Shown here: piece by piece, positions 9,377 to 22,454 of the stretch | Layout of the letters: each line of letters opens with the position of its first letter | Position numbering within the stretch: the stretch's first letter is position 1 | IMG/VR virus record: IMGVR_UViG_3300037991_003035 | Location: 1-52,946 of that record | Source of the DNA: a virus | Taxonomy: Duplodnaviria; Caudoviricetes | Reading direction: 5' to 3' (one strand) | DNA length: 52,946 nucleotides | Translations under genes and position numbers: made by a program | Notes under the pieces: model-generated | The model's input: the letters and a program-made list of their open reading frames with translations, nothing else | What the model was told of the DNA's origin: nothing | Databases searched by the model: none

Positions 9377-10264
9377 TTAATTCTCCCAACAGTTTATTTT
9401 ATCTTTAGTAAATTCCATTGTTATCCACCCAGTTCGTTGTATTCCATAAAAAGAATATCTTGCATAATCTGCGTAGCGTAAAAATGAACCTCCTCTAATA
9501 TACCACTTTCTTTTTAAAGTTTCCAGACCTTCTTCATCAATTGTTAAAGAATCTATAGGTTTGCAATATAGTTGGTGATTATGTCCTAAGAAAAATACAT
9601 CGCCATCACTATACACTGATGCCATTTTATCTAATTCAGTATCACCATTTTTAGCACCACTTTTACCATGTCCACTAACCATATACCAGTCTTTACCTTG
9701 TACGCTAATACGTGCATACCCAGGTAGTCTATAGTAAGGAACACCCATTTCACTTGCTAATGTTTTGCAAATATCAAAGTCTAATATATTAAAACTTCGT
9801 AAATAGTCATGATTACCACCACGTATAAACAAACATTTATCAGCAATTGGTTGTACTAATTTTAAAAATGCTAAGTATTGTTGTTCAGGTGTCATGGATT
9901 GTCCACGTTGATTAATGTTATAATTAGGCGGTATAAGTTCTATCATATCACCATTACCAAACCATCGTGCATTTGGGTCTTCGTAAATAATTTTTATAGC
10001 TTCTTGGAACTTTTTTAAATCAAATTCGTTAGCACCTACGTGTACATCCGTTAATCCGTGCACTCTAAGTTTTTCATCGCTATCAACAGCAAATACTTTA
10101 CCTGGTTCTATTTCTAATTTGTCATATTCTTTTACATCGCTAGGTATAGGTATAGAAAACCATTTACCACACGACTTACAACTAAATTGTTGTTTTACAG
10201 TATCTTTATTTCGCTTCTTGCCCTCTTTTTTAGTGAGCATACTACTACAATGTGGACAAATCAT
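9377..10264 (-). CDS. Zn-ribbon plus calcineurin-like metallophosphoesterase
   Basis: CPHC...CKSC N-terminus; DVH, GDMIE, GNHD, GH and GHNH motifs. Confidence 0.85.
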   Translation of the reverse strand: MICPHCSSMLTKKEGKKRNKDTVKQQFSCKSCGKWFSIPIPSDVKEYDKLEIEPGKVFAVDSDEKLRVHGLTDVHVGANEFDLKKFQEAIKIIYEDPNARWFGNGDMIELIPPNYNINQRGQSMTPEQQYLAFLKLVQPIADKCLFIRGGNHDYLRSFNILDFDICKTLASEMGVPYYRLPGYARISVQGKDWYMVSGHGKSGAKNGDTELDKMASVYSDGDVFFLGHNHQLYCKPIDSLTIDEEGLETLKRKWYIRGGSFLRYADYARYSFYGIQRTGWITMEFTKDKINCWEN

Positions 10265-11040
10265 TAGTCCTCCTGTGTTGTTTCTGGTAATATTTTGCGT
10301 TGAGCACTTTCTATTTCATCGGGACTAAACCCTTGAAACAATCCTACTACGCCCGTTTCTACTTTTTTAACTTGATTACCTAACGTACCTATAGCTTTAC
10401 CTAATTCTTTAATAGATTGTAATGCTATATTTTGGTCTTCGCTAGTATCAGCTAATTGTTTTAACGAACCTAATATGTATGCGTGGTCAATGCCTAGTTC
10501 TTTAGCTACTTCTTTAGAAGTTTTTTCTATTTCACTCATTACTCGCTCCTGTTTTAGTAATATTACTGCTTTTTTACGTGCAGTATTACGATTTTTTTCA
10601 GTAAACGCTTTCATATAAGCACTTACAGCATCCTTTCCTACTGCGACGCTAGTCGCAAAAATTTTTTCTTTATTCGTACACTTCGTGCGTTGTTTAACTC
10701 TTTTGTTTGTATTCTTAATTTTTTGTGAAAATGTGTATCTGTTAGGGTGTTTGGCAAAATCGGTATCCATGTGTGTCTTTGGACTACTAATAAATGTACC
10801 AACAATAGTTCTGACATAACCATTATTACTAGAATAGTTTTTGCTATCCTTCGGATGGTGCAGATTTTTAGAAACTTTTAATAATTGTATTATGCGCCCA
10901 TCATCGCTAAGTACCCAATCGCCCTCTCGCCCTTTTCTCCAATCTTTAACAAGAGGGGTCACTGGATATTTTTCTCTAAATTCTTCTCTAGTATCGTATA
11001 TATAATGACGAACACCTTTGATTACTTTACTTTGAGGCAT
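10264..11040 (-). CDS. Putative terminase small subunit
   Basis: C-terminal KEKIFA...DAVSAYMKAF...ARKKAVILLKQERV resembles the TerS helix-turn-helix; upstream of TerL. Confidence 0.55.
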   Translation of the reverse strand: MPQSKVIKGVRHYIYDTREEFREKYPVTPLVKDWRKGREGDWVLSDDGRIIQLLKVSKNLHHPKDSKNYSSNNGYVRTIVGTFISSPKTHMDTDFAKHPNRYTFSQKIKNTNKRVKQRTKCTNKEKIFATSVAVGKDAVSAYMKAFTEKNRNTARKKAVILLKQERVMSEIEKTSKEVAKELGIDHAYILGSLKQLADTSEDQNIALQSIKELGKAIGTLGNQVKKVETGVVGLFQGFSPDEIESAQRKILPETTQED

Positions 11041-11305
11041 TCTTTTTTTCTAGTTGTTTATGTAATGATTCAATGAGATGTAAGACTTGTTTATGTATAA
11101 AATATTTTTTTCCATTGATTTCTATAGGTACACTACTAGTTCCCTCGGCGGCATCCATGTCGTCAATTTCACTTAGCACGTATTCTTCCTCTTCTATTTC
11201 TGATGATAATATTTTTTCCAGCTTAACTAGTTTTTGTATATGCTCAAGTATTTTAACTTGCTCTTTATACGGCAACTTGCCTAGCCATTTTATTGCTATG
11301 CCCAT
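11027..11305 (-). CDS. Hypothetical protein (probable ATG start at 11305)
   Basis: AAGGA RBS before the ATG; co-oriented with the packaging operon. Confidence 0.6.
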   Translation of the reverse strand: MGIAIKWLGKLPYKEQVKILEHIQKLVKLEKILSSEIEEEEYVLSEIDDMDAAEGTSSVPIEINGKKYFIHKQVLHLIESLHKQLEKKNASK

Positions 11306-11314
11306 TGTTTTTCC

Positions 11315-11343
11315 TTGACAAACCAATCAAAAAGAATTATTTT
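11315..11343 (+). promoter_or_regulatory. Sigma70-like promoter, antisense to 11392-11574
   Basis: TTGACA (11315-11320), 17-nt spacer, TATTTT (11338-11343). Confidence 0.5.
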
Positions 11344-11391
11344 TAGATACCCTAGTAGCTACTAAGCAGATAACTTAGTATATAACTAGTT

Positions 11392-11574
11392 CTATTTCTT
11401 TTTCTTTGGTTCTTTCTTTTTCTTTAACTCTTTCGCAGCTTTCTCTTTTTCAGCTAAAATATCTAAGACAGCTTCTTCAAGCATCTCTTGTTCTCTTTCT
11501 TCAGCTAACTGAGCTTCTCGTCTAGCTACGCCAGTTAAACCAGTCTTTTCTAAGTCTTTAGTTGTATATGTCAT
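11392..11574 (-). CDS. Hypothetical protein (60 aa), first gene of the late arm, possibly leaderless
   Basis: No RBS; the ATG lies 5 nt after a putative -10 box. Confidence 0.6.
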   Translation of the reverse strand: MTYTTKDLEKTGLTGVARREAQLAEEREQEMLEEAVLDILAEKEKAAKELKKKKEPKKKK

Positions 11575-11579
11575 AATAT

Positions 11580-11622
11580 AACTTATGTATAACCCATGTT
11601 ATTTCCAAGAAAAATTATAGCA
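11580..11622 (-). promoter_or_regulatory. Tandem sigma70-like promoters for the late arm
   Basis: Extended -10 TGCTATAAT (11622-11614); TTGGAA (11608-11603), 17-nt spacer, TAAGTT (11585-11580). Confidence 0.55.
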
Positions 11623-11731
11623 TTTTGAAATGGACCTATATATACACACACACCCCCGTGCAGTGGGGTTATGATATATAACGATTACGTTAGAATTAGA
11701 TTAATATTAATATAGATTAAAGGAGACGACT

Positions 11732-12061
11732 ATGTCTGAGAAAGTTAATGAGCAGGAGTTCATCACGAAAGAAGAAGCAAAACTTCGTAAAGCAACAGCT
11801 GACGTAGTGGGTGCTATGGCTCTAAAATGTCTTGAGATACCAGAGTACAATGAGTATACTGGTAGAAGAGGCATCAAGAACTATGTACCTAAAACTACTG
11901 CACAGTTGCAACGTGAGCGTGGCGCAGCCTTAGAAGAAAATAAATTGCTAAGACAAAAGCATTTATCTATTCTTAAAGGTGAAGACATGAACCCTAATGA
12001 GCTTAGTGCCGCTGATAACTATGAAGCAGGTGCAGCTGAAAAGGGAAACGATCCTGAGTAA
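11732..12061 (+). CDS. Hypothetical early protein (109 aa)
   Basis: AAGGAG RBS; first plus-strand gene; followed by a terminator. Confidence 0.75.
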   Translation: MSEKVNEQEFITKEEAKLRKATADVVGAMALKCLEIPEYNEYTGRRGIKNYVPKTTAQLQRERGAALEENKLLRQKHLSILKGEDMNPNELSAADNYEAGAAEKGNDPE

Positions 12062-12068
12062 TATAACT

Positions 12069-12095
12069 AGGGTAGTGTAACAGCTACCCTTTTTA
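12069..12095 (+). terminator. Intrinsic terminator
   Basis: AGGGTAG-tgtaacag-CTACCCT followed by T tracts. Confidence 0.8.
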
Positions 12096-12255
12096 TACTT
12101 TTTTTTATGTTTTATGTATACTTATTGATGCGAACAAGACGTTAGATATACATACAAAGACTTACCCCATTATATACACATTATGTTGATAACATGGGGA
12201 TAAACAGAAAAAGAGTAGTATTGCCTTTATAAATGCGTAAAGGAGGTGATGCTAT

Positions 12256-12402
12256 ATGCGATATATTCATATCGTTGGAGAGTTACATAGTGATGACAAA
12301 GGTCGTTATCTACTTATAAATGATACTGGTAAAGCAGTAAAAATTTATGACATGATAGACTTAGTTATGTACATATGTAAGTTCTTTAAAGGGATGCAAT
12401 AA
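12256..12402 (+). CDS. Small early protein (48 aa; not in ORF track)
   Basis: MRYIHIVGELHSDDKGRYLLINDTGKAVKIYDMIDLVMYICKFFKGMQ, preceded by AAAGGAGGTGAT. Confidence 0.7.
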   Translation: MRYIHIVGELHSDDKGRYLLINDTGKAVKIYDMIDLVMYICKFFKGMQ

Positions 12403-12447
12403 TGTGTCCCTTATACCTAAATCTTAAACTATGAAACGGAGTGAACT

Positions 12448-12621
12448 ATGACTAGAAAACTAATAAAAGAAATTGGTAATGTATTAACTAGTGGTTATCT
12501 TAACAATAATAAAGTATTTACTATCTTATCTTTATTAGTGGCGAATGGTAACGCTAATGCGGACATGACTATGGAGGAAATTGATAGAGTCCTTCGTGAG
12601 CATTTTACTATCAAGAACTAG
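12448..12621 (+). CDS. Small early protein (57 aa; not in ORF track)
   Basis: MTRKLIKEIGNVLTSGYLNNNKVFTILSLLVANGNANADMTMEEIDRVLREHFTIKN; GGAG RBS. Confidence 0.65.
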   Translation: MTRKLIKEIGNVLTSGYLNNNKVFTILSLLVANGNANADMTMEEIDRVLREHFTIKN

Positions 12622-12623
12622 AT

Positions 12624-12695
12624 TATGAGGGAGTAGGTAGAGCGACTATGCAATCATTATTTATACCGTTAGTTCACTTCTCCTACTTCCTTATA
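12624..12695 (+). other. Long intergenic stem-loop
   Basis: TATGAGGGAGTAGG (12624-12637) pairs with CCTACTTCCTTATA (12682-12695): 14 bp including 2 G-U. Confidence 0.6.
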
Positions 12696-12699
12696 TTAA

Positions 12700-13514
12700 A
12701 AGATTTGGTCCATTCTACCATAAAAGAATCGGGTGTATATGCTCGTTACATAAAACTCAGAAATGAGTATAAAGTCAGAAATGGCGACATTATCTTCGGA
12801 TAGTGTTTGTGTATAAAATTGGAATATCAATTATGGCGTACAGATTCTCTCCTCGGTGAAAGCCAGGGTTTATCTAGATGTAATTGACTAGCACGATAGG
12901 GGTGTTAGTTGAGTTGGAAACAACAATAAGAAAATCCAAAAGATAATGAGTTAAGTGTCGTTGCGGTACTTGTTATCAGTCAGCATAGGTGAATGTCGTA
13001 GAAATACACAATCATCGTAGCTAAGACTACTTAAAACTCTAGATAACGACTAGAGACGGTAGGAAGTACTTATACTATTCGCTTCTCAAAAGGAAGTGAG
13101 GTATACAATTTTGTGCGGTACTTTCACATGACCCTTACTTTGCTATAATATACAAGCGTATTAGCTTCAAAGATAATATACTAGCATATATAACAAAAGG
13201 AAAAGTCACAAAACGTTTTAAATCAAAAGTGTTCTTGTTGTTGTCTGAAATACGATAGCTTCTAGTTGCTCCCAAAGCGCTAGAAAATTGACAAACAGCC
13301 AAGTTGGTCTAATTAACCATTAGTTGGAGCGGTAGCTTCGGATTGAGCTTAGTAGTCGGTTAACAGATTAAAACGATAAGAGTGATTAGCTATACTAATT
13401 GAACATGACATCGCAGTATGTAGGCAACTATAACTGGATAAAAGACTTAAGGGTAGAAATCCGTACGGGTCTCAAGGAGATGTTGGTAAAGGTGTAATCT
13501 CAACCTTTGCAATA
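12700..13514 (+). ncRNA. Large structured RNA, GOLLD-like (boundaries approximate)
   Basis: About 810 nt with no ORF of 60 aa or more; several GAAA and UUCG tetraloop hairpins; CUUC-UCAAAAG-GAAG hairpin; 3' hairpin AAAGGU-GUAAUCUCA-ACCUUU resembling the GOLLD 3' end as I recall it. Confidence 0.7.
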
Positions 13515-13781
13515 CTTACTCAAAGAATTATTTGATGATATATTAATGTGTTGATTTCCCAAAGTATATTTTATACGTTAATATCTACAACATTTGTTAG
13601 TGATTGTAGTGTTATTCGTATTTAACTGAGCAATGGCAAAAAAGCAGACGGATAGAAACGGCAACAGTTATTATATCTGGATAATGGAAGTGAGGTGATG
13701 AGCCGCATTCTAACCAAAAAATACTAATGTAGGTTGAGCGTTGTAATAGATACAGCGCAATATACCTTTTAAAGAAAGAAG

Positions 13782-14417
13782 GTGAACATGAAAGTAGAAA
13801 AATATGTTTATAAAGCTAAACCAGTTGATAAACAATCAAAAGTATATAAAAAGTTTATGAAAGTGTTTAAAGCTTATAAAAAGTTTGTAGAGGTAAATAA
13901 AAGATTACCTATGCAGAGTAGTCCTAACCATATTAGACCAAAGTCTGAAACAAAACTATATCAGTGGGCTGTTGGTAAGAAGAATAGAGCTTCTAAAAGA
14001 CTATTAGCGGAATGGCAATATGAATTATTATGTACTATTCCTGGATTCACATGGTCTACACAAAGTAATGTTTGGTTTAATATGTTAACAAACTTATCTG
14101 AGTATATGTTAAAGTATAATGAAACACCTACTCAATTAAGACCAGAACGTTTTCCAGAAAGAATACATAGAGGAAAATGGATTTCACCAGTAGATGATAA
14201 ACTACATAGATTATCAGTTTGGTGCATGGTACAAAGAAATGCTTACAGAAGAGGTACATTATTACCAGATAGAATGAATGCATTGATAGATATTGGTTTT
14301 GATTTTGAACCAGGTAATGGTCCAGCACATGAACGTGGTAATATTCCAGGTATGGATAGTATAGAAAACATAAAATATCTTAAGAATAAACAAAAACATT
14401 CTTGGAGGTATGAATGA
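13782..14417 (+). CDS. Stand-alone helicase-associated (HA) repeat protein
   Basis: Two repeats: LYQWAVGKK...LLAEWQYELLCTIPGFTW and WFNMLTNLSEY...LSVWCMVQRNAYRRGTLLPDRMNALIDIGFDF. Confidence 0.75.
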   Translation: MNMKVEKYVYKAKPVDKQSKVYKKFMKVFKAYKKFVEVNKRLPMQSSPNHIRPKSETKLYQWAVGKKNRASKRLLAEWQYELLCTIPGFTWSTQSNVWFNMLTNLSEYMLKYNETPTQLRPERFPERIHRGKWISPVDDKLHRLSVWCMVQRNAYRRGTLLPDRMNALIDIGFDFEPGNGPAHERGNIPGMDSIENIKYLKNKQKHSWRYE

Positions 14418-14551
14418 TGCAACACTATTGGTATGATGCAGACGCTGATATAATGTATATAGCTTGTTTGCAAACACATGAATTGATATTAATCATTGTG
14501 CTTCCTGTATTATGTTGGGAGTTATGTAAATGGTTATGGAGGTTAAAGTGA
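14414..14551 (+). CDS. Small hydrophobic peptide (45 aa; not in ORF track)
   Basis: MMQHYWYDADADIMYIACLQTHELILIIVLPVLCWELCKWLWRLK; GGAGG RBS; ATGA and GTGA overlaps. Confidence 0.6.
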   Translation: MMQHYWYDADADIMYIACLQTHELILIIVLPVLCWELCKWLWRLK

Positions 14552-14718
14552 AAAACACACCTAAACCTTATCAAGAATATTATTCAAGATTTGATACGGA
14601 TAATAGAAGAACTAAAGCAATATTATCAGCATACGCAAAGTATAGACGTGAAACATTACTTGGTCGTATTGCAGATAGATTTGATAAATTAATAGATAAA
14701 CTAAGCAAGAGGAACTAA
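14548..14718 (+). CDS. Hypothetical protein (probable GTG start at 14548)
   Basis: GGAGG upstream of the GTG; in frame with track ORF 14530-14718. Confidence 0.6.
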   Translation: MKNTPKPYQEYYSRFDTDNRRTKAILSAYAKYRRETLLGRIADRFDKLIDKLSKRN

Positions 14719-14720
14719 AC

Positions 14721-15341
14721 ATGGGATTTGATTTATATGGCGAAAAGCCAATACAAAATGAGTTTAAACATCAAAAAAGATGGGATGAACTTTCAGCTAT
14801 GTCTTACGATGAACGTGAATCAAAAGGACTAAGTGATGAGTATTATACTTTAATGAGTAAATACGAAGACATAAATCCAGGCGCATACTTTAGAAATAAT
14901 GTATGGTGGTGGAGACCTTTATGGTCATTTGTTTGTGAACATTGTGAAGACATATTAACTGAAGAAGATATGAACGGTGGTTGTTATAATGATGCACACG
15001 TAATATCTAGAAAAAAAGCTGAAGCAATAGCTACAAGACTTGAAGATGTTATTGAAACTGAAGAAACAAAAATGTGGATTAAAGAACACATGGATACTTT
15101 AGAACAAGCTAAACGTAACAACAAACAGGTTGAAGCTGAACTAGAAGAACTGAAAAAATTAGTTGAGGTAGAAACAGGTAATCCTGATATTTATCCAGCT
15201 ATATATCCAGATAAATTCAAAAAGAAGTATGATGAAGTTTACGCTAAAAGAGATTGGGCTAGTAGTTACCCATTTCACAAAGACAATGTTATTAACTTCA
15301 TTAACTTTGCAAGACAATCAGGAGGATTTTCAATATGTTAA
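14721..15341 (+). CDS. Conserved-looking hypothetical phage protein (206 aa)
   Basis: MGFDLYG...GAYFRNNVWWWRPLW...SGGFSIC; GAGG RBS. Confidence 0.75.
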   Translation: MGFDLYGEKPIQNEFKHQKRWDELSAMSYDERESKGLSDEYYTLMSKYEDINPGAYFRNNVWWWRPLWSFVCEHCEDILTEEDMNGGCYNDAHVISRKKAEAIATRLEDVIETEETKMWIKEHMDTLEQAKRNNKQVEAELEELKKLVEVETGNPDIYPAIYPDKFKKKYDEVYAKRDWASSYPFHKDNVINFINFARQSGGFSIC

Positions 15342-15589
15342 GAGATAAAACTCAAACATTGCGTATTCTCGGACATCTAAAACGACATGGCAACATTACA
15401 TCTATGGAGGCATTTAAAAAGTATAGTGCCACTAGATTAAGTGCAATCATATTTAGATTAAGAGAAGAGGGTTTTGACATTGATACCAGAAAAGAACAAA
15501 AAAATAATAAGTCTTTCGGTAGATACGTGTTAGAAGACACTCAAAATAATCTTCAATTACTATACGAGTATAGAAGATTGGTAAATTAG
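15335..15589 (+). CDS. Winged helix-turn-helix DNA-binding protein
   Basis: TQTLRILGHLKRHGNITSMEAFKKYSATRLSAIIFRLREEGFDI pattern. Confidence 0.75.
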   Translation: MLRDKTQTLRILGHLKRHGNITSMEAFKKYSATRLSAIIFRLREEGFDIDTRKEQKNNKSFGRYVLEDTQNNLQLLYEYRRLVN

Positions 15590-15657
15590 GTCGTAGGTGG
15601 GTGCTATTTGTAACGAATAGTTAAATGGTTCCGTAATAGCCAGCCCTCTATAGCCTG
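15587..15657 (+). ncRNA. Candidate ~70-nt three-way-junction RNA element
   Basis: Outer stem TAGGTCGTAGG-T-GGGT / GCCC-TCTATAGCCTG enclosing hairpins GCTATTTG/CGAATAGT and TGGTT/AGCCA. Confidence 0.4.
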
Positions 15658-15665
15658 AAAAGGTA

Positions 15666-15694
15666 TTGACTATAACCTGATAAATAATTATATT
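15666..15694 (+). promoter_or_regulatory. Sigma70-like promoter
   Basis: TTGACT, 17-nt spacer, TATATT, then GAGGAGG RBS and ATG at 15710. Confidence 0.75.
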
Positions 15695-15709
15695 CTATGA
15701 GGAGGATTC

Positions 15710-16459
15710 ATGATAGACATACCAAAAATATACAACGAATACTTGCAACGTAAAAGTGTGGAAAACCGTAAGAAATATGAGAAATATAAAGGATGGTTTT
15801 CAGCTAGTAGCGCAGGTAGTTGTTATAGAAAACAATTACATAGAAGACAAGACTTAGAGCTTGACCCTATGGATGAAAAGAGTGCTAGACTTTTAAGATT
15901 AGGTACATTAGTACACGCTGATTTTGAAGAAGCACTAAAAGAATTTGACATTGAAGAACGTGTAGATAAACCAGACGAAGTACAGGTATTAACAGAACAT
16001 AGAATAGAAATACCAGAACTTATGGTTGTAGGACACTTAGATGTCGGTGTAGTAAACCTAGAAGGTGAGATGATACATGTATATGATATTAAAACCGCAG
16101 GTGCTTGGAAATGGCGTATGAAGTTTGGAAGAAATCCAGATAAAAATCCAAGTGTAAACTACGAACTACAATTGGCTACATATGCAATAGGATTAGGTAA
16201 TGAAAAAGATATTACTGATTTAAGACTATCTATTATGTGGTATAATAAAGACAATTCAATGATGCGTGAAGAAAAGATTAGTGAATTATATCTTGAAGAA
16301 GCGTTTGATTATTGGACAGATTTAAATGAAACTTCTGATAGTATTGCAGGTAAACCTGAAGAACTAATACCAGGTGAACAGAATGTACCAGTATATAACT
16401 GGGAATGTAAGTATTGTGAGTTTCAAGGTAAGTATTGTCCTGGATTGTATAATATTTAG
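15710..16459 (+). CDS. Cas4-like / PD-(D/E)XK exonuclease with Fe-S cysteines
   Basis: N-terminal Cys, LGTLVH, GHLD...YDIKT, QLATY, C-terminal CKYC...C. Confidence 0.85.
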   Translation: MIDIPKIYNEYLQRKSVENRKKYEKYKGWFSASSAGSCYRKQLHRRQDLELDPMDEKSARLLRLGTLVHADFEEALKEFDIEERVDKPDEVQVLTEHRIEIPELMVVGHLDVGVVNLEGEMIHVYDIKTAGAWKWRMKFGRNPDKNPSVNYELQLATYAIGLGNEKDITDLRLSIMWYNKDNSMMREEKISELYLEEAFDYWTDLNETSDSIAGKPEELIPGEQNVPVYNWECKYCEFQGKYCPGLYNI

Positions 16460-16467
16460 GAGAAACA

Positions 16468-16668
16468 ATGAGCAAAGAAGAAACGCATTGTTGTTTGTGT
16501 GAAGGTGTATTAGACGACCCGTACGGACACAACGCTGAACCAATAATGACAGGTAGATGTTGTAGTTTATGTAATATATCTGCAGTAATACCTATAAGAT
16601 TAAAACTTTTACAGATTAGTTTAGATAAAAATGGAGGAAATAAATCGTGGAAGAAAAAAATAAAGTAA
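16468..16668 (+). CDS. Small Cys-rich hypothetical protein
   Basis: CCLC...GHNAEP...GRCCSLCN; AGGAG RBS. Confidence 0.7.
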   Translation: MSKEETHCCLCEGVLDDPYGHNAEPIMTGRCCSLCNISAVIPIRLKLLQISLDKNGGNKSWKKKIK

Positions 16669-16850
16669 CTAAAGATGAATGGATAGCTTTTCTGGAGGTA
16701 AGACAAGATGGACAATATAATATGTTTAGTCCTCAAGCTAGGGATAGTGCTGGTCTTGATAAAGATAAGTGGAAACAAATCATGAATAATTTTGATGAAC
16801 TATATGAATATTGGGGGGACTTAAATGAGTGCATTTCAAACGTTAAGTAA
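16647..16850 (+). CDS. Hypothetical protein (67 aa)
   Basis: GGAGG RBS, GTG start; VRQDGQYNMF. Confidence 0.7.
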   Translation: MEEKNKVTKDEWIAFLEVRQDGQYNMFSPQARDSAGLDKDKWKQIMNNFDELYEYWGDLNECISNVK

Positions 16851-17382
16851 AATAGATGTAAGTGAACATACTGAAAAGAAAGGTAAATTTACATATCTTT
16901 CTTGGGCTTGGGCTGTGAAAGTACTATTAGAAAACTTTCCAGATGCAACTTGGGAAGTACATACTTATTTTGACAATGGTGTAGAAACACCTTATATGCG
17001 TACTCAAGCTGGTGCATTTGTACAAGTAACAGTAAGTATAGACGAAGTAAGAAGAACTCAAGTACATCCAGTATTAGACCATATGAATAAAAGTGTAGAT
17101 GAACCTAACGCTTTTCAAATAAACAATTCAATACAACGTTGTTTAGCAAAAGCAATAGCACTACACGGACTAGGTTTATATATTTACGCTGGTGAAGATT
17201 TACCAACTGAGCCTGAAGAGTTAAATGAGAAACAAGTAACTGAACTATTTGATTTACTTGGTAAAATTGACAACACACAACTTAGTGAGCAAATAAAGAA
17301 AGCTGTTGATAGTAAAGAAATAAATGACGGCAACTTTAAAGGTGCTATGGCTAAACTAAGGAGGCAACATGAAGTCTCTTAA
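16825..17382 (+). CDS. Single-strand annealing protein, Sak3/DUF1071 family
   Basis: EKKGKFTYLSWAWA and QRCLAKAIALHGLGLYIYAGEDLP motifs. Confidence 0.85.
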   Translation: MSAFQTLSKIDVSEHTEKKGKFTYLSWAWAVKVLLENFPDATWEVHTYFDNGVETPYMRTQAGAFVQVTVSIDEVRRTQVHPVLDHMNKSVDEPNAFQINNSIQRCLAKAIALHGLGLYIYAGEDLPTEPEELNEKQVTELFDLLGKIDNTQLSEQIKKAVDSKEINDGNFKGAMAKLRRQHEVS

Positions 17383-17632
17383 TGTAGAAGGCAAAGCAGT
17401 TGATTTTAGAGATGATATATACAAACTGCACACAAAATATACAATAGGTGTAAACGACGGCAAAGAGTTTCGTGAAGCTACGTTTACTGGTACTAAATTA
17501 TATCACGGTAAACCTATGTTAACATTTGTAATGTATGGAGGTAGACGTAATGGTCATCTCAACTTAAATATTAATCAAAGCTATCTATCTTATGCGATAG
17601 AAGAACCTATGGAGGATAAACAAGATGGGTAA
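17369..17632 (+). CDS. Hypothetical protein (87 aa)
   Basis: AGGAGG RBS; overlapping operon arrangement. Confidence 0.7.
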   Translation: MKSLNVEGKAVDFRDDIYKLHTKYTIGVNDGKEFREATFTGTKLYHGKPMLTFVMYGGRRNGHLNLNINQSYLSYAIEEPMEDKQDG

Positions 17633-17900
17633 ATTAAGCGAAGGACAAGCAAAAGACTTGTTAGAAAAAGGTGTTATTGATAAAAGCACTTATCATAAAA
17701 TGGAAAATGATGGTATTATCAGCGCAGGTAGAGGTGTAAAGCGTAGATATATACAAACAGCTGATGGTAATTTTGTATCACCTATGCTGTACTTTTCAGG
17801 ATTAAAAGGTGCTAAGTACTCAGATGACATGAAGAAATTAAAAACGGAAGTAAACCAAGTAATAGAAAAGTTTACTACCACAAACACGGAGAGTAAATAA
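17625..17900 (+). CDS. Hypothetical protein (91 aa)
   Basis: GGAGG RBS; overlapping operon arrangement. Confidence 0.7.
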   Translation: MGKLSEGQAKDLLEKGVIDKSTYHKMENDGIISAGRGVKRRYIQTADGNFVSPMLYFSGLKGAKYSDDMKKLKTEVNQVIEKFTTTNTESK

Positions 17901-17902
17901 AC

Positions 17903-18469
17903 ATGAAAGAAGCTAATATTAACTTTGTTAATGACGATAATTCTGGATACGTTCCAGTACCAGAAGCTACATATCCAGCTCATGTATCTTCATTTAAGAT
18001 GAATGAATACAACGGCAGTTATGTATTTAATGTTACGTTTCAAGTTGCAGATGAAGCTAAAGAGCTAAAGCTACCTAAGTTACGTAAAGATAATAATGGA
18101 AACCACGTACCTACAGGTGAACACGTTAGTGGTGCATTTGTAACAGGTAAAGAATATAGAACTGATAAAGGCGTATGGCTTACACCTAATCCTAGTGAAG
18201 GAGAAGAGTGGAAGAACAAACGTTATAAAGAGTTCTTTGAAAAAATGGGAGTATCATTTCCTAAAAACGATGATGGTATAGTTCAATTAGGCATAGTAGA
18301 AGATGAAGATGTATATGGTCTTCCTTGTTTAATTAAATTAAAAGAAACTGAGTTTACTAACAAAGATGGAGAATCAAAGAAATCTTTGCAAGTAACTGAA
18401 ATATCAGTTTGGGAAAACGGTACCAGAATCAGTAAAGAAGAGTTTGATGCTGATGATTTACCATTTTAG
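17903..18469 (+). CDS. Single-stranded DNA-binding protein (DUF669-like)
   Basis: YVPVPEATYPA N-terminus and acidic DADDLPF tail; adjacent to the annealase. Confidence 0.7.
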   Translation: MKEANINFVNDDNSGYVPVPEATYPAHVSSFKMNEYNGSYVFNVTFQVADEAKELKLPKLRKDNNGNHVPTGEHVSGAFVTGKEYRTDKGVWLTPNPSEGEEWKNKRYKEFFEKMGVSFPKNDDGIVQLGIVEDEDVYGLPCLIKLKETEFTNKDGESKKSLQVTEISVWENGTRISKEEFDADDLPF

Positions 18470-18471
18470 TA

Positions 18472-18500
18472 TTGAATAATTAATACTAATTTATTATATT
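18472..18500 (+). promoter_or_regulatory. Sigma70-like promoter
   Basis: TTGAAT, 17-nt spacer, TATATT; same GTA-TTGA...TATATT context as 15666. Confidence 0.7.
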
Positions 18501-18593
18501 ATATGAGGGTTCGGCGTATTGAGATTAACCAGGATATTCGGTTATCCCTGGTCATGTAAATACAGGTATTGGCTTGCTCAGAACCCTCGTATA
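18501..18593 (+). ncRNA. Structured 5' leader or candidate small RNA
   Basis: TATGAGGGTTC/GAACCCTCGTA 11-bp stem enclosing GTATT/AATAC and ACCAGG/CCTGGT; immediately followed by AAGGAGG. Confidence 0.5.
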
Positions 18594-18605
18594 AAAGGAG
18601 GAATC

Positions 18606-18785
18606 TTGGATAAACTTAAACAAGCACAAGAATTGTTGCGTGTAAATACTGTTTGGAATAGAATCATACAACGAATAAAGAATAGTTTAGAAATTGGTTC
18701 TAGTGAAAAAGATTTAATAGACGATATTGTGCAAATTGAATGGGCGAAGGAAAAACGCAATGAACGAAGCAGTAATAACGATTAA
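18606..18785 (+). CDS. Hypothetical protein (probable TTG start at 18606)
   Basis: AAGGAGG 4 nt upstream; in frame with track ORF 18519-18785. Confidence 0.6.
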   Translation: MDKLKQAQELLRVNTVWNRIIQRIKNSLEIGSSEKDLIDDIVQIEWAKEKRNERSSNND

Positions 18786-18975
18786 ACTTACAGATAGTGA
18801 AGTAAACTTAATGGTTGAAACACTTAAAAATAGCACCTTAAATGGTGAAATGAAAGAACCACTAAAAAGATTAGAAAACGATTTAGTTGATATTCTTGAT
18901 ATGGTATCTTTAAAACGAAGAGAACAAAAACTTATAAATAGTAGGGAGGTTACTATTGGGGAAAACTTATCTTAA
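18760..18975 (+). CDS. Hypothetical protein (probable ATG start at 18760)
   Basis: AAGGA RBS; in frame with track ORF 18727-18975. Confidence 0.6.
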   Translation: MNEAVITIKLTDSEVNLMVETLKNSTLNGEMKEPLKRLENDLVDILDMVSLKRREQKLINSREVTIGENLS

Positions 18976-19156
18976 TAAACTAAAACCTGGTTCTAGGTTT
19001 AGTCTACATGGTTTGCAGGGTATACTACTTAACGTAGGTATCAATGCAGAAGTATTAATAACTGAAATACCAAACGATGCATGGCACCAAGAAAACGAGT
19101 CTTATTATAAAGGAAGACAAACTTGGTCTGCTAAAACATTAGTGGAGGAGTTATGA
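18956..19156 (+). CDS. Hypothetical protein (66 aa)
   Basis: GGAGG RBS, TTG start. Confidence 0.6.
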   Translation: MGKTYLNKLKPGSRFSLHGLQGILLNVGINAEVLITEIPNDAWHQENESYYKGRQTWSAKTLVEEL

Positions 19157-19584
19157 AATGCGAAGCATGTGGACACGAGAACGGAAGAAAATACAATCCA
19201 ATAAGGCGTATCATTTCTCTCTTAGAAGCAAGAGGCGAAACGTTGTGTCAAAAGAGATTAAAACGAATAATAAAAATAATTCGTACACAAATAGTTTCTG
19301 ATAGTAGTAATCAAAAAACCTTTTACTTTCTGCAAGCAATATCCAAAATACCTAACGATACTGTAGAAAGAGTACTTGGTAAGTATGAAATGGATGAACA
19401 TGCATATAGCGGTAAAGGGTTTGCATATCTTCAACAGATGATAATATCTGAACATGAAAATAAATCTAAACTATTAGAAAATGAAATAAAAAAGTTTGGT
19501 AGAACACCAAAGAAGACAAAAGTTGAGCGAGGAGAATATAAAGATGTCTATAGTAGCAATGGAGGAAACACTCTTTCCAGTTAA
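19153..19584 (+). CDS. Hypothetical protein (143 aa), N-terminal CxxC
   Basis: GGAGGAG RBS; ATGA overlap with the previous gene. Confidence 0.7.
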   Translation: MKCEACGHENGRKYNPIRRIISLLEARGETLCQKRLKRIIKIIRTQIVSDSSNQKTFYFLQAISKIPNDTVERVLGKYEMDEHAYSGKGFAYLQQMIISEHENKSKLLENEIKKFGRTPKKTKVERGEYKDVYSSNGGNTLSS

Positions 19585-20329
19585 AGAAGTTCCAGCAACC
19601 TTTATGAAAGCTGAAGGTAAAAAAAGAACTCTGATGACTGAAACAGGGTATAAGTTCATCGTAAGAGAAGATACAGGAGATGTACTATCTTGTATGACTG
19701 ATGAATATAAAGTAGTTGACAACAGAACTGTTGTTGATAAAGTACAAAAAGTATTAAAAGGAAATGGAGTTGAACTAGCTGAAGCAAGAACATTTTCTGG
19801 TGGACAACGTGCTATCTGGAAATGGAATTTCCCTAATACTGAAGTCAAAGTTGACAAAGGTGATTTAATAAATCCACAATTAATCGTTGCAAATAGTTAT
19901 GATGGTACAACATCAGTTAATGTAATGGGTGGTGCATTCAGACTTGTTTGTTTGAATGGTTTGACAATTGGTAATGTTTTAACTAAGAAAAAAGCAGTAC
20001 ATAAGAACAACAATACTGGTATTGTAGATATTGATAAGACAATAACGGATACAGTAACTATGTTAGTTCAGTTGTTTGAACAGGAATTTCCTAGACTGAC
20101 AAGTACTAAGCTTAGAAAGAAACATATGATAGATATATCTAAGATTATTCCAACACAATATATGGAAGACTTTACAAGATATTGCGTAAATAATAATATG
20201 AATACATATTGGGATTTACTAAATGCTTGTACTTATATTGCAACACACGTTGCACATAGAGATAGAGAGTCTGTACATCTAATGGAGAATCAGATATATC
20301 CTACAGTAACAAGATTAGCAAGAGCATAG
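19544..20329 (+). CDS. DUF932-family protein (probable ATG start at 19544)
   Basis: IVREDTGDVLS...YKVVDN, ANSYDGT, FRLVCLNGL motifs. Confidence 0.8.
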   Translation: MSIVAMEETLFPVKEVPATFMKAEGKKRTLMTETGYKFIVREDTGDVLSCMTDEYKVVDNRTVVDKVQKVLKGNGVELAEARTFSGGQRAIWKWNFPNTEVKVDKGDLINPQLIVANSYDGTTSVNVMGGAFRLVCLNGLTIGNVLTKKKAVHKNNNTGIVDIDKTITDTVTMLVQLFEQEFPRLTSTKLRKKHMIDISKIIPTQYMEDFTRYCVNNNMNTYWDLLNACTYIATHVAHRDRESVHLMENQIYPTVTRLARA

Positions 20330-20330
20330 G

Positions 20331-20894
20331 TTCCTGAGAATAAGATAGCTTCTTAATAAAGGTCCCTGAGATATAGACCACTTGATAGAGACTGGCTACG
20401 TTAACCGAAGTCGTATAGAAGTGTAGCACGACCCTCTCTACAAAGTCTATTCTCTTGCTGATAATCTATAGGATGATACATGGAAGAGCTCCAGTAGTTG
20501 CCTATAGTAACAACTACATTTAGTCTCACGGGAAGCATAGCAGACCACGTGGACGAAATTAGTAATTATAGTTAAGTTAAAACCTGAAGCTTAAGCGAAT
20601 GTATACGTACAAATATGGTTGGTGTATACGCTTAACTATATAATTAGGCGGTGATGGATTAGCCAGTAGACTCTAGAGTTTATAAGCCGCCTAAAGAATT
20701 AGAAAGTTGATATGGAGAAATACCATATTGTAAAACTCAATGACGGACCGAACCCTAGGGCGATACCTTTAATATAATCGGTTGGGGACAGAGTTAGAGC
20801 TCATATTTGAAGCGAATCTTTCTATAACATTAGGAGTAGCAACAGAAGGTGAGTCTTGCATAAAGTCCATGGAAACCGAAACTAGCTGCTCCTA
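20331..20894 (+). ncRNA. Array of five stem-closed structured RNA modules (family not recognised)
   Basis: Closing stems: 20331-39/20524-34; 20567-76/20631-40; 20644-51/20687-94; 20700-06/20818-24; 20831-40/20885-94; no ORF in the track. Confidence 0.65.
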
Positions 20895-20911
20895 TAACAT
20901 TTGGAGGAAAT

Positions 20912-21175
20912 ATGAAATTAAGTAAAAGAGAACAAGCATGGGAAGATAGAAAACAATCTTCTGATGACTTTATAATTAAAGAAAATTTTCAAGAAAGACT
21001 TAAAAATTTTAAGTCAGTTGACGTTTGGAGCAAAGAACATATTGCAGAACGTGAAAAATTCTATAAAAAATTCGGTAGAGCTTGGTGGATATTTTGTGGA
21101 GTTTCAGTTGTAGAAAAATACAACGAACAATGGATTAATAAATATAGAGTTTTAGATGGAGAAATAAATGAATAA
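20912..21175 (+). CDS. Hypothetical protein (87 aa)
   Basis: GGAGG RBS. Confidence 0.7.
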   Translation: MKLSKREQAWEDRKQSSDDFIIKENFQERLKNFKSVDVWSKEHIAEREKFYKKFGRAWWIFCGVSVVEKYNEQWINKYRVLDGEINE

Positions 21176-21437
21176 ATCAGAACATTTTGAAAAAAACGAT
21201 ATGGATGATATGTGGGTATGCGATTATTGCGGTACAGAAGAAGTAGATGAAAAAGCGTGGGTTAATATGAACACGCTTGAAGTTATGGAAAGCGTTGACG
21301 ATACTACATATTGGTGTAATATTTGCAATGACGAAGCATCACCATTATCATATTTTGAATTTAAAGAAAAGATTGCTGAAGAATGTGGAGGCAATAAAGA
21401 AAAGTATCATCAAATTTTAGATGGGAGTAGAATGTAA
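21168..21437 (+). CDS. Zn-finger-like hypothetical protein
   Basis: CDYC...AWV..N...WCNIC. Confidence 0.7.
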   Translation: MNKSEHFEKNDMDDMWVCDYCGTEEVDEKAWVNMNTLEVMESVDDTTYWCNICNDEASPLSYFEFKEKIAEECGGNKEKYHQILDGSRM

Positions 21438-21709
21438 TGGGATATTTCAAGAAACTAGAAATAGAACGTATGGATAACTACAAGTTAAGAGAAGCAGAAG
21501 ACTTTGAAGACGGAGTAGATAGGTATCCTATGCCTCATATACCTACAGAAGAGGAAATAGAAGATACTAAACAAGATACTACGTGGAGTGTTAAACACGA
21601 AGGACACTTGAACAGAAATAATATAATCTTCCATAGTAATAAATATCAAAAACTTCACCAAAAAATGAAAAAAGTTGATGATAAATTGAAGGAGCATAAA
21701 GATGAGTGA
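21437..21709 (+). CDS. Hypothetical protein (90 aa)
   Basis: TAATG overlap with the previous gene; GGAG RBS. Confidence 0.65.
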   Translation: MGYFKKLEIERMDNYKLREAEDFEDGVDRYPMPHIPTEEEIEDTKQDTTWSVKHEGHLNRNNIIFHSNKYQKLHQKMKKVDDKLKEHKDE

Positions 21710-21830
21710 CGCTGAAAAAGCATTTGATTTACAAGAAAAAATAGCAAAGCTAATAGATAAATTAAACGAGCTTGGATTTGAGTATATGTATTACAACAAT
21801 ATAAGCTCAATAAGAAGAAAGAGAAAATAA
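21702..21830 (+). CDS. Small hypothetical protein (42 aa; not in ORF track)
   Basis: MSDAEKAFDLQEKIAKLIDKLNELGFEYMYYNNISSIRRKRK; AAGGAG RBS. Confidence 0.6.
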   Translation: MSDAEKAFDLQEKIAKLIDKLNELGFEYMYYNNISSIRRKRK

Positions 21831-21831
21831 C

Positions 21832-22056
21832 ATGATGAAATTTATAAGTATACCTGTATATAGTAGTACAGATGAAGAAAGTGGAGTAACGCATTACGAT
21901 ATAGATGCTATGCGTGAAAAGTTTGAAGAAGAAATGATATTGTTAGAAAGCTCTACACAAGCAGAACTAGATGGATGGGCTGACAAACAAGCAGATTATG
22001 CTATGGACAATATGACAAGTGATGTATATGAACAAGCTAGGGAGGCATTTGAATGA
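21832..22056 (+). CDS. Acidic hypothetical protein (74 aa)
   Basis: Operon context; D/E-rich. Confidence 0.6.
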   Translation: MMKFISIPVYSSTDEESGVTHYDIDAMREKFEEEMILLESSTQAELDGWADKQADYAMDNMTSDVYEQAREAFE

Positions 22057-22454
22057 GCGAAACATTAAAAGAAAAATACAATAGAACTAAAATGTGGTAT
22101 AATTCAGCACAGAAATTGCTTATGGATAGAACCATTGTAAACGTATGGTGGCAAGAATGGGATGAAGATTATCCAGATGAAGGTACTGGTTTAGTATTTA
22201 GTACAGATAAGGGCGATGTATTCTTTGTAGGAATGGATGATGAAGGTAATGGTCCTGGTTCTTTACATGTTGGTATGAGCGATGAACGTAGAGAAGAGTT
22301 TAAGAAAGATGGATTATGTGCTTCTTGTTTACCAGTAGGTGTAGAAAGCAATTCATCATATAAAGAAATGTGGCTAACAATGCATGGTTTAAATAACAAA
22401 AGTTGGGAAGAATCTGGTCATACTGAACTAAAAGAAGTTAAAGATGAAGGATAA
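22053..22454 (+). CDS. Hypothetical protein (133 aa)
   Basis: GGAGG RBS; DDEGNGPGSL motif. Confidence 0.7.
   Translation: MSETLKEKYNRTKMWYNSAQKLLMDRTIVNVWWQEWDEDYPDEGTGLVFSTDKGDVFFVGMDDEGNGPGSLHVGMSDERREEFKKDGLCASCLPVGVESNSSYKEMWLTMHGLNNKSWEESGHTELKEVKDEG

What the first reader, a model, noticed from the sequence alone, without database searches (positions are those of the whole stretch)
12700..13514. ~810-nt GOLLD-like giant RNA in the early region of a tRNA-less lytic phage
Seen: hairpins ACUCA-GAAA-UGAGU (12755-68), GUCA-GAAA-UGGC, GACAUUAUC-UUCG-GAUAGUGUU (12786-807), GGU-GAAA-GCC, GUUG-GAAA-CAAC (12913-24), CUCUAG/CUAGAG and UCGCUUC-UCAAAAG-GAAGUGA. The terminal stem has loop GUAAUCUCA, which could pair with UUGAG near 13343. 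Known: GOLLD RNAs are ~800-nt phage-associated RNAs of unknown function, often near tRNA genes, and reported to multimerise. Inference: a GOLLD or related (ROOL-class) RNA in an atypical context, with no tRNAs and probably very early expression. The family call rests on my recollection of the 3' motif.
Basis: partly seen in the sequence, partly recalled or inferred. Interest (0 to 1): 0.75.

Follow-up and report, generated by a model that had tools for sequence, protein, structure and literature searches.

The report
GOLLD cage RNA in tRNA-less phage
The gene-free stretch encodes a GOLLD RNA, a known giant phage RNA that builds hollow cages from copies of itself, here in a small marine phage that has no tRNA genes and swaps versions of this RNA with its close relatives.

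Summary
Window 13062-13506 (+) matches the Rfam GOLLD model (RF02032, the conserved 3' domain) end to end at 141.2 bits, E 6e-39, just under the curated 150-bit cut-off. Window 12725-13061 is a GOLLD-type 5' domain. A model of its first 91 nt finds the matching place upstream of canonical GOLLD 3' domains and in 19 of 19 related loci. A clade alignment gives 64 pairs, 43 with compensatory changes.

Contigs from four marine metatranscriptome studies cover the RNA; in three runs they cover nothing else in the 8 kb laid.

The phage (52.9 kb, 99% complete) has no tRNA and no integrase hit. Of 78 related phage records, 19 carry GOLLD and 16 of those 19 have no tRNA hit. Relatives 90-95% identical in the flanks carry a different GOLLD allele plus a different neighbouring gene.

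Early expression was not tested. The proposed loop-UUGAG pairing is not supported. This is a new member of a known class; its function is still unknown. The scan's first readers noted a look-alike stretch on another genome (e1-6211312).

The parts
12698..13506 (+). Whole GOLLD RNA as delimited by conservation, about 809 nt. It comprises a leader, a 5' domain and a 3' domain.
   Evidence: The 5' limit is the leader motif AAAGAUUU plus the small hairpin P0, conserved in nearly all clade members. The 3' limit is the end of the Rfam GOLLD match. RNA-library contigs span 12716-13803, 12719-13481, 12795-13474 and 12730-13463.
12698..12724 (+). Conserved leader: AAAAGAUUU, then small hairpin P0 (UGGU 12706-12709, loop 12710-12716, ACCA 12717-12720), then AUAAAAG.
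   Evidence: P0 is kept by compensatory changes across the clade: GGU/ACC, CGU/ACG, GUC/GAC, GGC/GCC. A canonical GOLLD (L005) lacks P0 and starts with the AAAGAAUU motif 4 nt after a tRNA 3' end.
12725..13061 (+). 5' domain, 337 nt: hairpin P1 (12730-12745), a junction of three hairpins with the conserved AUAAAGU (12769-12775), and further helices.
   Evidence: Model R1 (12725-12815) hits canonical GOLLD loci at the expected place and 19 of 19 clade loci at E 3e-11 to 8e-6. Alignment A7 gives 64 pairs, 43 compensatory, with 95.3% of cells paired against 34-47% when partners are slid. Fold z -4.9.
13062..13506 (+). 3' domain: the full-length match to Rfam GOLLD RF02032.
   Evidence: 141.2 bits, E 6e-39, model 1-416 of 416. 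By my count of the structure and NC lines, about 92 of 98 model pairs are standard pairs, 3 are non-standard and 3 are deleted.
13062..13126 (+). P13/P14 hairpin with the L14 loop UCAAAAG (13086-13092).
   Evidence: The loop is identical to the Rfam consensus. The conserved L14 adenosines make intermolecular bridge B6 in the solved cage.
13127..13213 (+). Variable linker (J13/15), 87 nt, with no tRNA inside.
   Evidence: It aligns to the unpaired, variable part of the model. 9 of the 22 differences between the window and its two near-identical relatives within 12730-13506 fall at 13156-13182. ARAGORN and Rfam find no tRNA here.
13305..13319 (+). Hairpin UGGU-CUAAUUA-ACCA. The loop is self-complementary (AAUU core) and is a candidate self-kissing loop (L21a by my mapping).
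   Evidence: It aligns to model hairpin ~233-246. Canonical loci carry CGCAA, UCGAA or AGGCC there, which fits the GC/CG switching the paper reports for L21a. The mapping to L21a is my inference from text; figures are not held.
13491..13505 (+). Terminal hairpin P27 with loop GUAAUCUCA.
   Evidence: It matches the invariant 3' motif of the model. The loop core UCUCA is kept in 17 of 17 distinct clade sequences.
13507..13781 (+). Trailing ORF-free spacer before the 211-aa gene. It is probably co-transcribed and is not part of the conserved RNA.
   Evidence: Fold z -0.94, with 39 of 200 shuffles as good. One RNA-library contig (X8) runs on to 13803. In most clade members the next gene's ribosome-binding site follows the terminal hairpin within about 30-45 nt.
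12624..12695 (+). Long hairpin after the 57-aa ORF. It is a neighbour of the RNA, not part of it.
   Evidence: Two near-identical relatives (L017, L002) have a roughly 190-nt insertion with a small ORF between this hairpin and the RNA. Other clade members have a different strong hairpin, or a weak tRNA-like element, at this place.

Best explanation
Window ~12698-13506 (+) is the gene for a GOLLD RNA, a roughly 800-nt two-domain non-coding RNA of phages.

Shown here:
- It has the full conserved GOLLD 3' domain and a GOLLD-type 5' domain.
- Both domains are held by compensatory base changes.
- The stretch is present in marine RNA libraries, where it stands out over the neighbouring phage genes.

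Inferred from solved GOLLD structures (10-, 12- and 14-mers):
- The transcript folds into a 5' cap domain and a 3' ring domain.
- Copies assemble without protein into a closed dihedral cage.
- The 87-nt linker points inward.
- Assembly would use the conserved L14 adenosines, a GNRA loop and a self-complementary loop (AAUU core at 13309-13315).
- The copy number cannot be predicted.

Inferred from position:
- It is transcribed rightward with the early/replication arm.
- It is then either cut out of, or sits at the front of, a longer transcript. No terminator follows it.

Inferred function, the weakest step:
- It is an accessory host-takeover or counter-defence RNA that captures or shields some host component.
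- Neither this phage nor most GOLLD-bearing relatives encode a tRNA. So its job here cannot depend on phage tRNAs as cargo or as processing signals.
For: Identity:
- Rfam GOLLD match, 141.2 bits, E 6e-39, model 1-416 of 416. About 92 of 98 model pairs are standard pairs (my count).
- The L14 loop UCAAAAG and the terminal loop GUAAUCUCA are identical to the consensus.

5' domain:
- Model R1, built only from the window group, placed 6 of its 7 hits (E 0.007-0.15) 320-400 nt upstream of, and on the same strand as, the Rfam 3'-domain hit in canonical GOLLD loci.
- On that alignment 89.8% of cells pair, against 35-47% when partners are slid. 22 of 29 pairs show compensatory change.
- R1 hits 19 of 19 clade loci.
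- Alignment A7 (18 sequences, plain MAFFT) gives 64 pairs, 43 compensatory, with 0 of 500 shuffles reaching the observed score.

Expression:
- 6 RNA runs hold the stretch. I laid 4 of them, from 4 studies.
- In X17, X19 and X20, contigs cover only 12719-13481, 12795-13474 and 12730-13463 within the 8-kb stretch laid. The exceptions are one 51-nt piece in X20 with 6 mismatches and a piece of a relative's RNA in X17.
- In X8 the contig on the RNA has mean word depth 658, against 17-43 for the 7 other listed pieces on flanking genes.

Context:
- No tRNA in G000 (99% complete) or G001 (100% complete).
- GOLLD is present in 19 of 78 related records, and in 4 of the 13 that are at least 90% complete.
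- 16 of those 19 have no tRNA hit.
- Allele swapping between relatives.

Cage formation by GOLLD RNAs comes from Kretsch et al. (preprint passages and section 5; Nature version passages) and the review PMC12990946 (passages).
Against: - The score is below Rfam's gathering cut-off (141.2 against 150).
- One model hairpin is shortened by 3 pairs, and an extra hairpin is inserted in the loop I map to L26.
- In 7 other canonical GOLLD loci, R1 with filters off gave only 3 weak hits at the right place (E 1.2-2.6) among 23 hits, and none in 4 loci. So the 5' domain resembles only part of the family.
- All RNA evidence is from assembled contigs. Contigs cannot show strand, ends or level, and the runs were chosen because they hold this stretch. 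The contig ends at 12716-12730 coincide with a stretch that varies between strains, so they may be assembly breaks.
- No promoter was identified. Sigma-70-like sites are no more frequent than in shuffles (19 found, 19.4 expected).
- Multimerisation, cargo and biological role are untested here, and the role is unknown for the family as a whole.
- 9 of 13 complete relatives do without GOLLD, so it is dispensable for the phage type.
Confidence: 0.88

Rival explanations
1. It is a separate, GOLLD-related class rather than a member. The clade scores below the family threshold and has its own leader hairpin, a shorter 5' domain (326-357 nt against 420 in env-38) and an AU-only self-complementary loop. 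Some alleles lack a whole hairpin.
For: - 13 of the 19 clade GOLLDs and the window score 106-141 bits, below the cut-off of 150.
- The P0 leader is absent from canonical L005.
- Group B/C alleles lack the hairpin at model ~233-246.
- R1 is weak or absent in 7 canonical loci.
Against: - The whole 416-position model aligns, at E 6e-39.
- 6 clade members score above the cut-off, 156-201 bits, and they share the same 5' start. The clade therefore grades into canonical GOLLD.
- GOLLDs inside tRNA arrays also fall below the cut-off.
- The solved Sag GOLLD also lacks several helices yet counts as GOLLD.
Confidence: 0.06
2. The structured RNA acts mainly in cis, as a giant 5' leader that controls or stabilises the mRNA of the gene that follows, and not as a free cage-forming RNA.
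For: - No terminator-like site follows the RNA.
- In most clade members the next gene's ribosome-binding site lies 30-45 nt after the terminal hairpin.
- The X8 RNA contig runs from 12716 through to 13803, into the next gene.
Against: - The downstream genes differ between alleles and are unrelated to each other.
- In three RNA runs, cover stops at 13463-13481 with nothing on the next gene.
- In the loci I inspected, the canonical GOLLD L005 is followed by tRNAs and no downstream ORF was noted.
- Purified GOLLDs assemble on their own.
Confidence: 0.08
3. The stretch is a decaying relic or merely spacer DNA. The RNA-library signal would then be read-through or DNA carry-over.
For: - 9 of 13 complete relatives lack GOLLD.
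- Contigs cannot prove transcription or strand.
Against: - Compensatory changes maintain 43 of 64 pairs in the 5' domain and almost all 3'-domain pairs.
- Two diverged alleles both appear in RNA libraries. The loose end of X17 record 2 has the group-B version of the first hairpin.
- Cover in RNA libraries is confined to, or strongly raised over, the RNA.
Confidence: 0.02

Closest known systems
GOLLD RNA (Rfam RF02032; Weinberg et al. 2009, recalled, paper not held; env-38 GOLLD cryo-EM 14-mer, Kretsch et al. 2025, PMC12286853)
   Same: - Full 3'-domain architecture, with the L14 loop UCAAAAG and terminal loop GUAAUCUCA.
- 5' domain beginning with hairpin P1 and a three-hairpin junction around AUAAAG.
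- A variable linker between the P13/P14 hairpin and the rest of the 3' domain.
- About 800 nt long, phage-borne, and found in marine samples (env-38 is also marine).
   Different: - No tRNA beside it, inside it or anywhere in the genome. By contrast, 17 of 17 other GOLLD loci that I fetched by the 3' motif have tRNAs in the fetched flanks.
- The 5' domain is 337 nt against 420.
- It has an extra leader hairpin, P0.
- The loop I map to L21a is an AU-only palindrome instead of GC/CG.
- The score is 9 bits under the Rfam cut-off.
Streptococcus agalactiae GOLLD (700 nt, dodecamer; 3' domain alone a decamer), as summarised in the review PMC12990946 (passages read)
   Same: It is a shorter GOLLD lacking some helices of the consensus. 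This shows that members with reduced 5' domains still form closed cages, and that copy number follows which helices are present.
   Different: It comes from a bacterial pathogen's genome, not from a marine phage. I have no alignment to it, because its sequence is not held here. Which helices the window RNA lacks relative to it is unknown.
ROOL RNA (Rfam family; octameric cage)
   Same: It is a large, ornate, phage-associated RNA, often near tRNAs, that self-assembles into a cage.
   Different: Its sequence and fold are unrelated. There is no ROOL hit on window 12300-14000 even at E <= 10, and no Rfam hit at gathering level on the whole window.

Membership tests
GOLLD (RF02032) | Covariance-model score at or above Rfam's gathering cut-off (150 bits) | tested here: not met
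   141.2 bits, E 6e-39, full model. This is a curated convenience threshold and not a structural feature. GOLLDs inside tRNA arrays score 111-146 bits.
GOLLD (RF02032) | Conserved 3' domain: all helices of the 416-position model in order | tested here: met
   The alignment covers model 1-416. About 92 of 98 pairs are standard, 3 are non-standard and 3 are deleted (my count).
GOLLD (RF02032) | Signature loops: L14 UCAAAAG and 3'-terminal GUAAUCUCA | tested here: met
   Both are identical to the consensus, at 13086-13092 and 13494-13502.
GOLLD (RF02032) | Less conserved but recognisable 5' domain upstream of the 3' domain | tested here: met
   R1 hits sit at the expected place in L005/L014, L018, L022, L011 and L012, with 22 of 29 pairs compensatory. 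The result is inconclusive for 7 other canonical loci.
GOLLD (RF02032) | Variable, unconstrained linker (J13/15) inside the RNA | tested here: met
   87 nt at 13127-13213 align to the unpaired part of the model. Differences from near-identical relatives cluster there.
GOLLD (RF02032) | Phage or prophage location | tested here: met
   The record encodes terminase, portal, major head protein, endolysin and tail fibre and is rated 99% complete as a virus.
GOLLD (RF02032) | Neighbouring or embedded tRNAs (typical of the family, described as 'often', not defining) | tested here: not met
   0 tRNAs by ARAGORN and by Rfam RF00005 at E <= 0.01. The literature says 'often' near tRNAs.
GOLLD (RF02032) | RNA-only homo-oligomeric cage | not testable with these tools
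   Only indirect support: the L14 adenosines, a GNRA loop and a self-complementary loop are present. It needs mass photometry or cryo-EM.
ROOL | Match to the Rfam ROOL covariance model | tested here: not met
   There is no ROOL row among the 5 matches at E <= 10 on 12300-14000, and no hit at gathering level on the window.

The most novel reading that the evidence does not exclude
GOLLD may be a free-standing, exchangeable accessory cassette whose function has nothing to do with phage tRNAs.

In this marine phage lineage it occurs without any tRNA. It is present in only some otherwise similar genomes. Nearly isogenic phages carry alleles whose bodies no longer align and whose inter-subunit loops differ or are missing.

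That pattern would fit diversifying selection. One possibility is alleles that assemble only with themselves during co-infection. Another is escape from a host system that recognises the cage. Either would make GOLLD a player in phage-host or phage-phage conflict rather than a tRNA store.
Probability: 0.25. Interest if true: 0.65.

Novelty: new member of a known kind. Interest (0 to 1): 0.4.

Why it matters
GOLLD is one of the largest bacterial and phage non-coding RNAs. It is now known to build protein-free cages, yet it still has no known function. The leading published ideas tie it to tRNAs: tRNA cargo, tRNAs embedded in its linker, and co-transcription with tRNA arrays.

- This locus and its lineage show complete or near-complete phage genomes that keep and express a GOLLD with no tRNA anywhere. 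Any general function therefore cannot require phage tRNAs.
- The lineage offers natural allele pairs in nearly identical genomic backgrounds, and related genomes with and without the RNA. That is the comparison one would want for working out what it does.
- Rfam's cut-off misses this marine clade: 13 of 19 relatives and the window itself score below it.

Tried and rejected
- Public phage records. blastn of 12600-13600 against 50,697 phage records gave no match. TerL reaches only 22-25% identity to cultured phages in the listed hits, all below 60%. There is no close cultured relative.
- Promoter. Sigma-70-like sites are no more frequent than in shuffles. A Bacteroidota-type -7 motif (TANNTTTG, recalled from memory) occurs 75 times against 87 expected, so I dropped that idea. 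The genes carry clear Shine-Dalgarno sequences.
- Trailing 275 nt as a second RNA. Fold z is -0.94, and only near-identical relatives match it. Rejected.
- Closing helix UACC/GGUA (12716-12719 with 13058-13061) from the energy fold. It is not kept in L017/L002. Rejected in favour of hairpin P0.
- Host. Two conflicting MAG labels turned up on homologues of the exonuclease: Pelagibacterales for P0116 at 45% identity, and Roseobacter on an 8.4-kb contig at 47%. The host is unresolved.
- The 2925-aa ORF, said by another first-reader note to be an injected RNA polymerase. It has no PHROG, Pfam or PDB-sequence hit. Its only relatives are 38-39% identical proteins without names. Neither shown nor excluded.
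- GOLLD-less complete relatives. No R1 hit below E 0.18 in 9 loci, and no Rfam hit at E <= 0.001 in 6 loci. They really lack it near the exonuclease gene.
- Parts of the laid stretch without RNA-contig cover are not evidence that those genes are silent.
- Literature. Searches were 'golld' (1,396 papers by word start, mostly unrelated plant papers, 30 listed), 'golld rna'+'phage'+'trna' (9 papers), 'golld'+'marine'+'phage genomes' (2 papers) and 'golld'+'rool' (18 papers). By title or abstract, none listed deals with tRNA-less GOLLD phages or allele exchange. Weinberg 2009 and Morgado 2020 are not held. The GOLLD alignment in Supplementary File 3 of Kretsch et al. may already contain this clade.
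Full report
**What is there**

Between the 57-aa ORF that ends at 12621 and the 211-aa gene that starts at 13782, no ORF of 60 aa or more lies on either strand. The stretch folds better than shuffled copies: z -4.9 for 12716-13061 and z -3.2 for 12716-13506. The window is a whole IMG/VR virus record of 52,946 bp, rated 99% complete.

**Family test**

At Rfam's gathering thresholds the window has no hit at all. With E-value reporting, window 13062-13506 (+) matches GOLLD (RF02032) over the full model, positions 1-416, at 141.2 bits and E 6e-39. Against the record alone the E-value is 4.6e-41. The other four rows are noise (E 0.25-3.4), and ROOL is not among them.

- By my count of the structure line the model has 98 pairs. 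In the window, 3 are non-standard and 3 are deleted (a shortened hairpin).
- The L14 loop UCAAAAG and the terminal loop GUAAUCUCA are identical to the consensus.
- The score is 9 bits below the curated cut-off of 150.
- I fetched 24 IMG/VR loci that share the 3' motif. Of these, 14 score 170-294 bits; L005/L014 and L018/L025 give identical scores and are probably duplicates.
- Three more loci sit in tRNA arrays yet score below the cut-off: L013 at 119 bits, L016 at 111 bits and the 5'-cut L015 at 146 bits.
- Five show no GOLLD at E <= 1e-5. The remaining two (L002, L003) are near-identical relatives of the window and did not reach the gathering cut-off; I did not score them at E-value level.

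So the cut-off is conservative and the call is GOLLD.

**The 5' domain**

Rfam models only the 3' domain. I built a covariance model (R1) from window 12725-12815 and its two near-identical relatives.

- In 22 loci carrying the 3' motif it gave 7 hits at E <= 10. Six of them (L005/L014, L018, L022, L011, L012; E 0.007-0.15) lie 320-400 nt upstream of the Rfam 3'-domain hit and on the same strand. The seventh (L009) lies elsewhere.
- On the resulting alignment 89.8% of cells pair, against 35-47% with slid partners. 22 of 29 pairs show changes on both sides. That alignment is fitted to the model, which favours the structure.
- In 7 further canonical loci, with filters off, only 3 of 23 hits were at the right place and they were weak. 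So the resemblance covers part of the family.

**A lineage of relatives**

The neighbouring Cas4-like exonuclease (15710-16459) has many marine homologues. An alignment of 26 of them found 80 IMG/VR loci.

- I searched the 78 records other than the two already known. 19 hold a GOLLD match: 6 above the cut-off and 13 at 106-132 bits.
- Among records at least 90% complete, 4 of 13 hold one.
- R1 hits all 19 at the expected place, at E 3e-11 to 8e-6. Their 5' domains are 326-357 nt long.
- A plain MAFFT alignment of the 18 distinct 5' domains, folded by RNAalifold, gives 64 pairs, 43 with compensatory changes.
- 95.3% of cells pair, against 34-47% when slid, and 0 of 500 shuffles reach the covariation score. 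The structure was derived from this same alignment, which flatters the comparison somewhat.

**Boundaries**

Directly upstream of hairpin P1, nearly every clade member has AAAGAUUU followed by a small hairpin whose stem changes in a compensatory way: GGU/ACC, CGU/ACG, GUC/GAC, GGC/GCC. The conserved unit therefore starts at about 12698.

The 72-nt hairpin at 12624-12695 is not part of the RNA. L017 and L002 carry a roughly 190-nt insertion with a small ORF between that hairpin and the RNA.

The 3' end by homology is 13506. No terminator follows. In most clade members the next gene's ribosome-binding site comes 30-45 nt later. The window has instead a 275-nt spacer with no unusual folding (z -0.94).

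**Expression**

The stretch is held by 20 of the 24 listed public runs, from 12 studies. All are marine or estuarine where labelled, and 6 are RNA libraries. I laid four RNA runs from four studies on 9500-17500. All are assembled contigs.

- In X17, X19 and X20, contigs cover 12719-13481, 12795-13474 and 12730-13463, and no flanking gene. The exceptions are one 51-nt piece in X20 with 6 mismatches and a piece of a relative's RNA in X17.
- In X8, one 1,088-nt contig spans 12716-13803 at mean word depth 658. The 7 other listed pieces on neighbouring genes have depths of 17-43.
- One X17 contig fits 12722-12754 and then runs on with the group-B version of the first hairpin (CCUG-GAAA-CAGG). So a second allele is also present in RNA libraries.

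Caveats apply. Contigs show neither strand nor ends nor level. The runs were chosen because they hold this stretch. The 5' contig ends fall in a stretch that varies between strains. The + strand assignment rests on the covariance models and on invariant G-U pairs.

**Context**

The rightward arm 11732-25287 carries small ORFs, then the RNA, then the Cas4-like exonuclease, a Sak-like annealing protein, a methyltransferase, a DnaB-like helicase and a resolvase. Both leftward arms carry terminase, portal, head, endolysin and tail-fibre genes. So the RNA lies near the start of the early/replication arm. The timing of its expression was not tested.

- There is no tRNA and no tyrosine or serine recombinase in this record. 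The same holds for the 71.6-kb, 100%-complete relative G001.
- Of the 19 GOLLD-bearing relatives, 16 have no tRNA hit at E <= 0.01. These include the complete G010, G022 and G042.
- The other three (G046, G047, G079) have a single weak tRNA-like hit (25-29 bits) just upstream of the GOLLD 5' domain.
- By contrast, 17 of 17 GOLLD loci outside this lineage have tRNAs within the fetched flanks.
- The literature says 'often' near tRNAs.

**Allele exchange**

Four relatives (L027, L030, L031, L032) are 88-95% identical to the window from about 10060-10326 up to 12775, apart from a gap at roughly 11670-12240 where only 40 nt align, and again from 14534-14549 onward. They share nothing alignable in between.

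- There they carry a different GOLLD (group B) and a different downstream gene instead of the 211-aa HA-domain gene.
- blastn finds no similarity between the window's 3' domain and group B's, yet both match the Rfam model.
- The left edge of the swap lies in the conserved leader/P1-P3 block.
- Flanks at 90-95% identity around unalignable bodies mean replacement, not divergence in place.

**How it probably works**

Solved GOLLDs are protein-free dihedral cages. The env-38 RNA (833 nt) forms a 14-mer, the S. agalactiae RNA (700 nt) a 12-mer, and its 3' domain alone a 10-mer. The 5' domains form the caps, the 3' domains the rings, and the linker lies inside.

The window RNA keeps the L14 adenosines, which make bridge B6. 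It has a GNRA loop (GCAA) in the hairpin I map to P24. It also has a 7-nt loop with a self-complementary AAUU core at 13309-13315 in the hairpin I map to P21a. Canonical loci have CGCAA, UCGAA or AGGCC at that loop, matching the GC/CG switching reported for the self-kissing L21a. This helix mapping is my inference from text and the Rfam structure line, because figures are not held. Group B/C alleles lack this hairpin.

I therefore expect a closed homo-oligomer of unknown copy number. What it does is not known for any GOLLD. The patchy presence, allele exchange, early-arm position and high RNA signal fit an accessory host-takeover or counter-defence role. The absence of tRNAs argues against a role that needs phage tRNAs.

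The proposed pairing of the terminal loop with UUGAG (13343-13347) is not supported. UCUCA is kept in 17 of 17 distinct clade sequences, UUGAG in only 2 of 17. The cryo-EM paper pairs this loop with P23 and J24/26.

**Verdict**

This is a genuine, expressed GOLLD RNA: a new member of a known class, in a tRNA-less marine phage lineage that Rfam's threshold mostly misses. The scan's first readers had noted a look-alike stretch on another genome (e1-6211312, 73 of 98 words shared) and many other GOLLD loci.

Noticed in passing
window 28263-37040 (-): A 2925-aa ORF has no PHROG, Pfam or PDB-sequence match. Its only relatives are unnamed proteins, 38-39% identical, on 17-54 kb contigs. Another first-reader note (e1-6299465) calls it an injected RNA polymerase. 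I could neither support nor exclude that.
   Followed up: partly
window 12698|12699; L017 about 2730-2920; L002: Two ~98%-identical relatives carry a roughly 190-nt insertion with a small ORF and its own ribosome-binding site, exactly between the upstream hairpin and the GOLLD leader.
   Followed up: partly
window 12624-12695 (+): A 72-nt hairpin with a stem of about 14 bp follows the 57-aa ORF. Its stem is unchanged and its loop varies in relatives. Other clade members have a different strong hairpin at this place, and L124 has a weak tRNA-like element. It may be a terminator or a processing signal standing where canonical GOLLD loci have a tRNA.
   Followed up: partly
L047:2700-3309 (+) (record G021, 100% complete, no GOLLD): At the position where the window has GOLLD, this relative has about 600 nt of ORF-free sequence after the homologous small ORF. 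The 980-nt stretch folds at z -4.1. It matches neither Rfam nor R1. It may be a different non-coding RNA.
   Followed up: partly
G046:14712-14782, G047:2616-2686, G079:20442-20510: Single weak tRNA-like hits (25-29 bits) lie directly upstream of the GOLLD 5' domain in three otherwise tRNA-less relatives. They may be degenerate tRNAs kept as processing signals.
   Followed up: no
window 13782-14417 (+): The 211-aa gene that travels with this GOLLD allele has a helicase-associated (HA, PF03457) domain at E 2e-9. Relatives carrying the other allele have an unrelated gene there.
   Followed up: partly
window 44503-49275 (-): The 1590-aa tail-fibre protein has an N-terminal Mtd_N domain (major tropism determinant) and a C-terminal S74 chaperone domain. 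I did not look for a diversity-generating retroelement.
   Followed up: no
L005:8196-8535, L006:12697-13051, L026:2635-2985: Canonical GOLLD loci fetched for comparison also carry phage tmRNA genes (alpha-type, permuted or standard) in the same tRNA islands.
   Followed up: no
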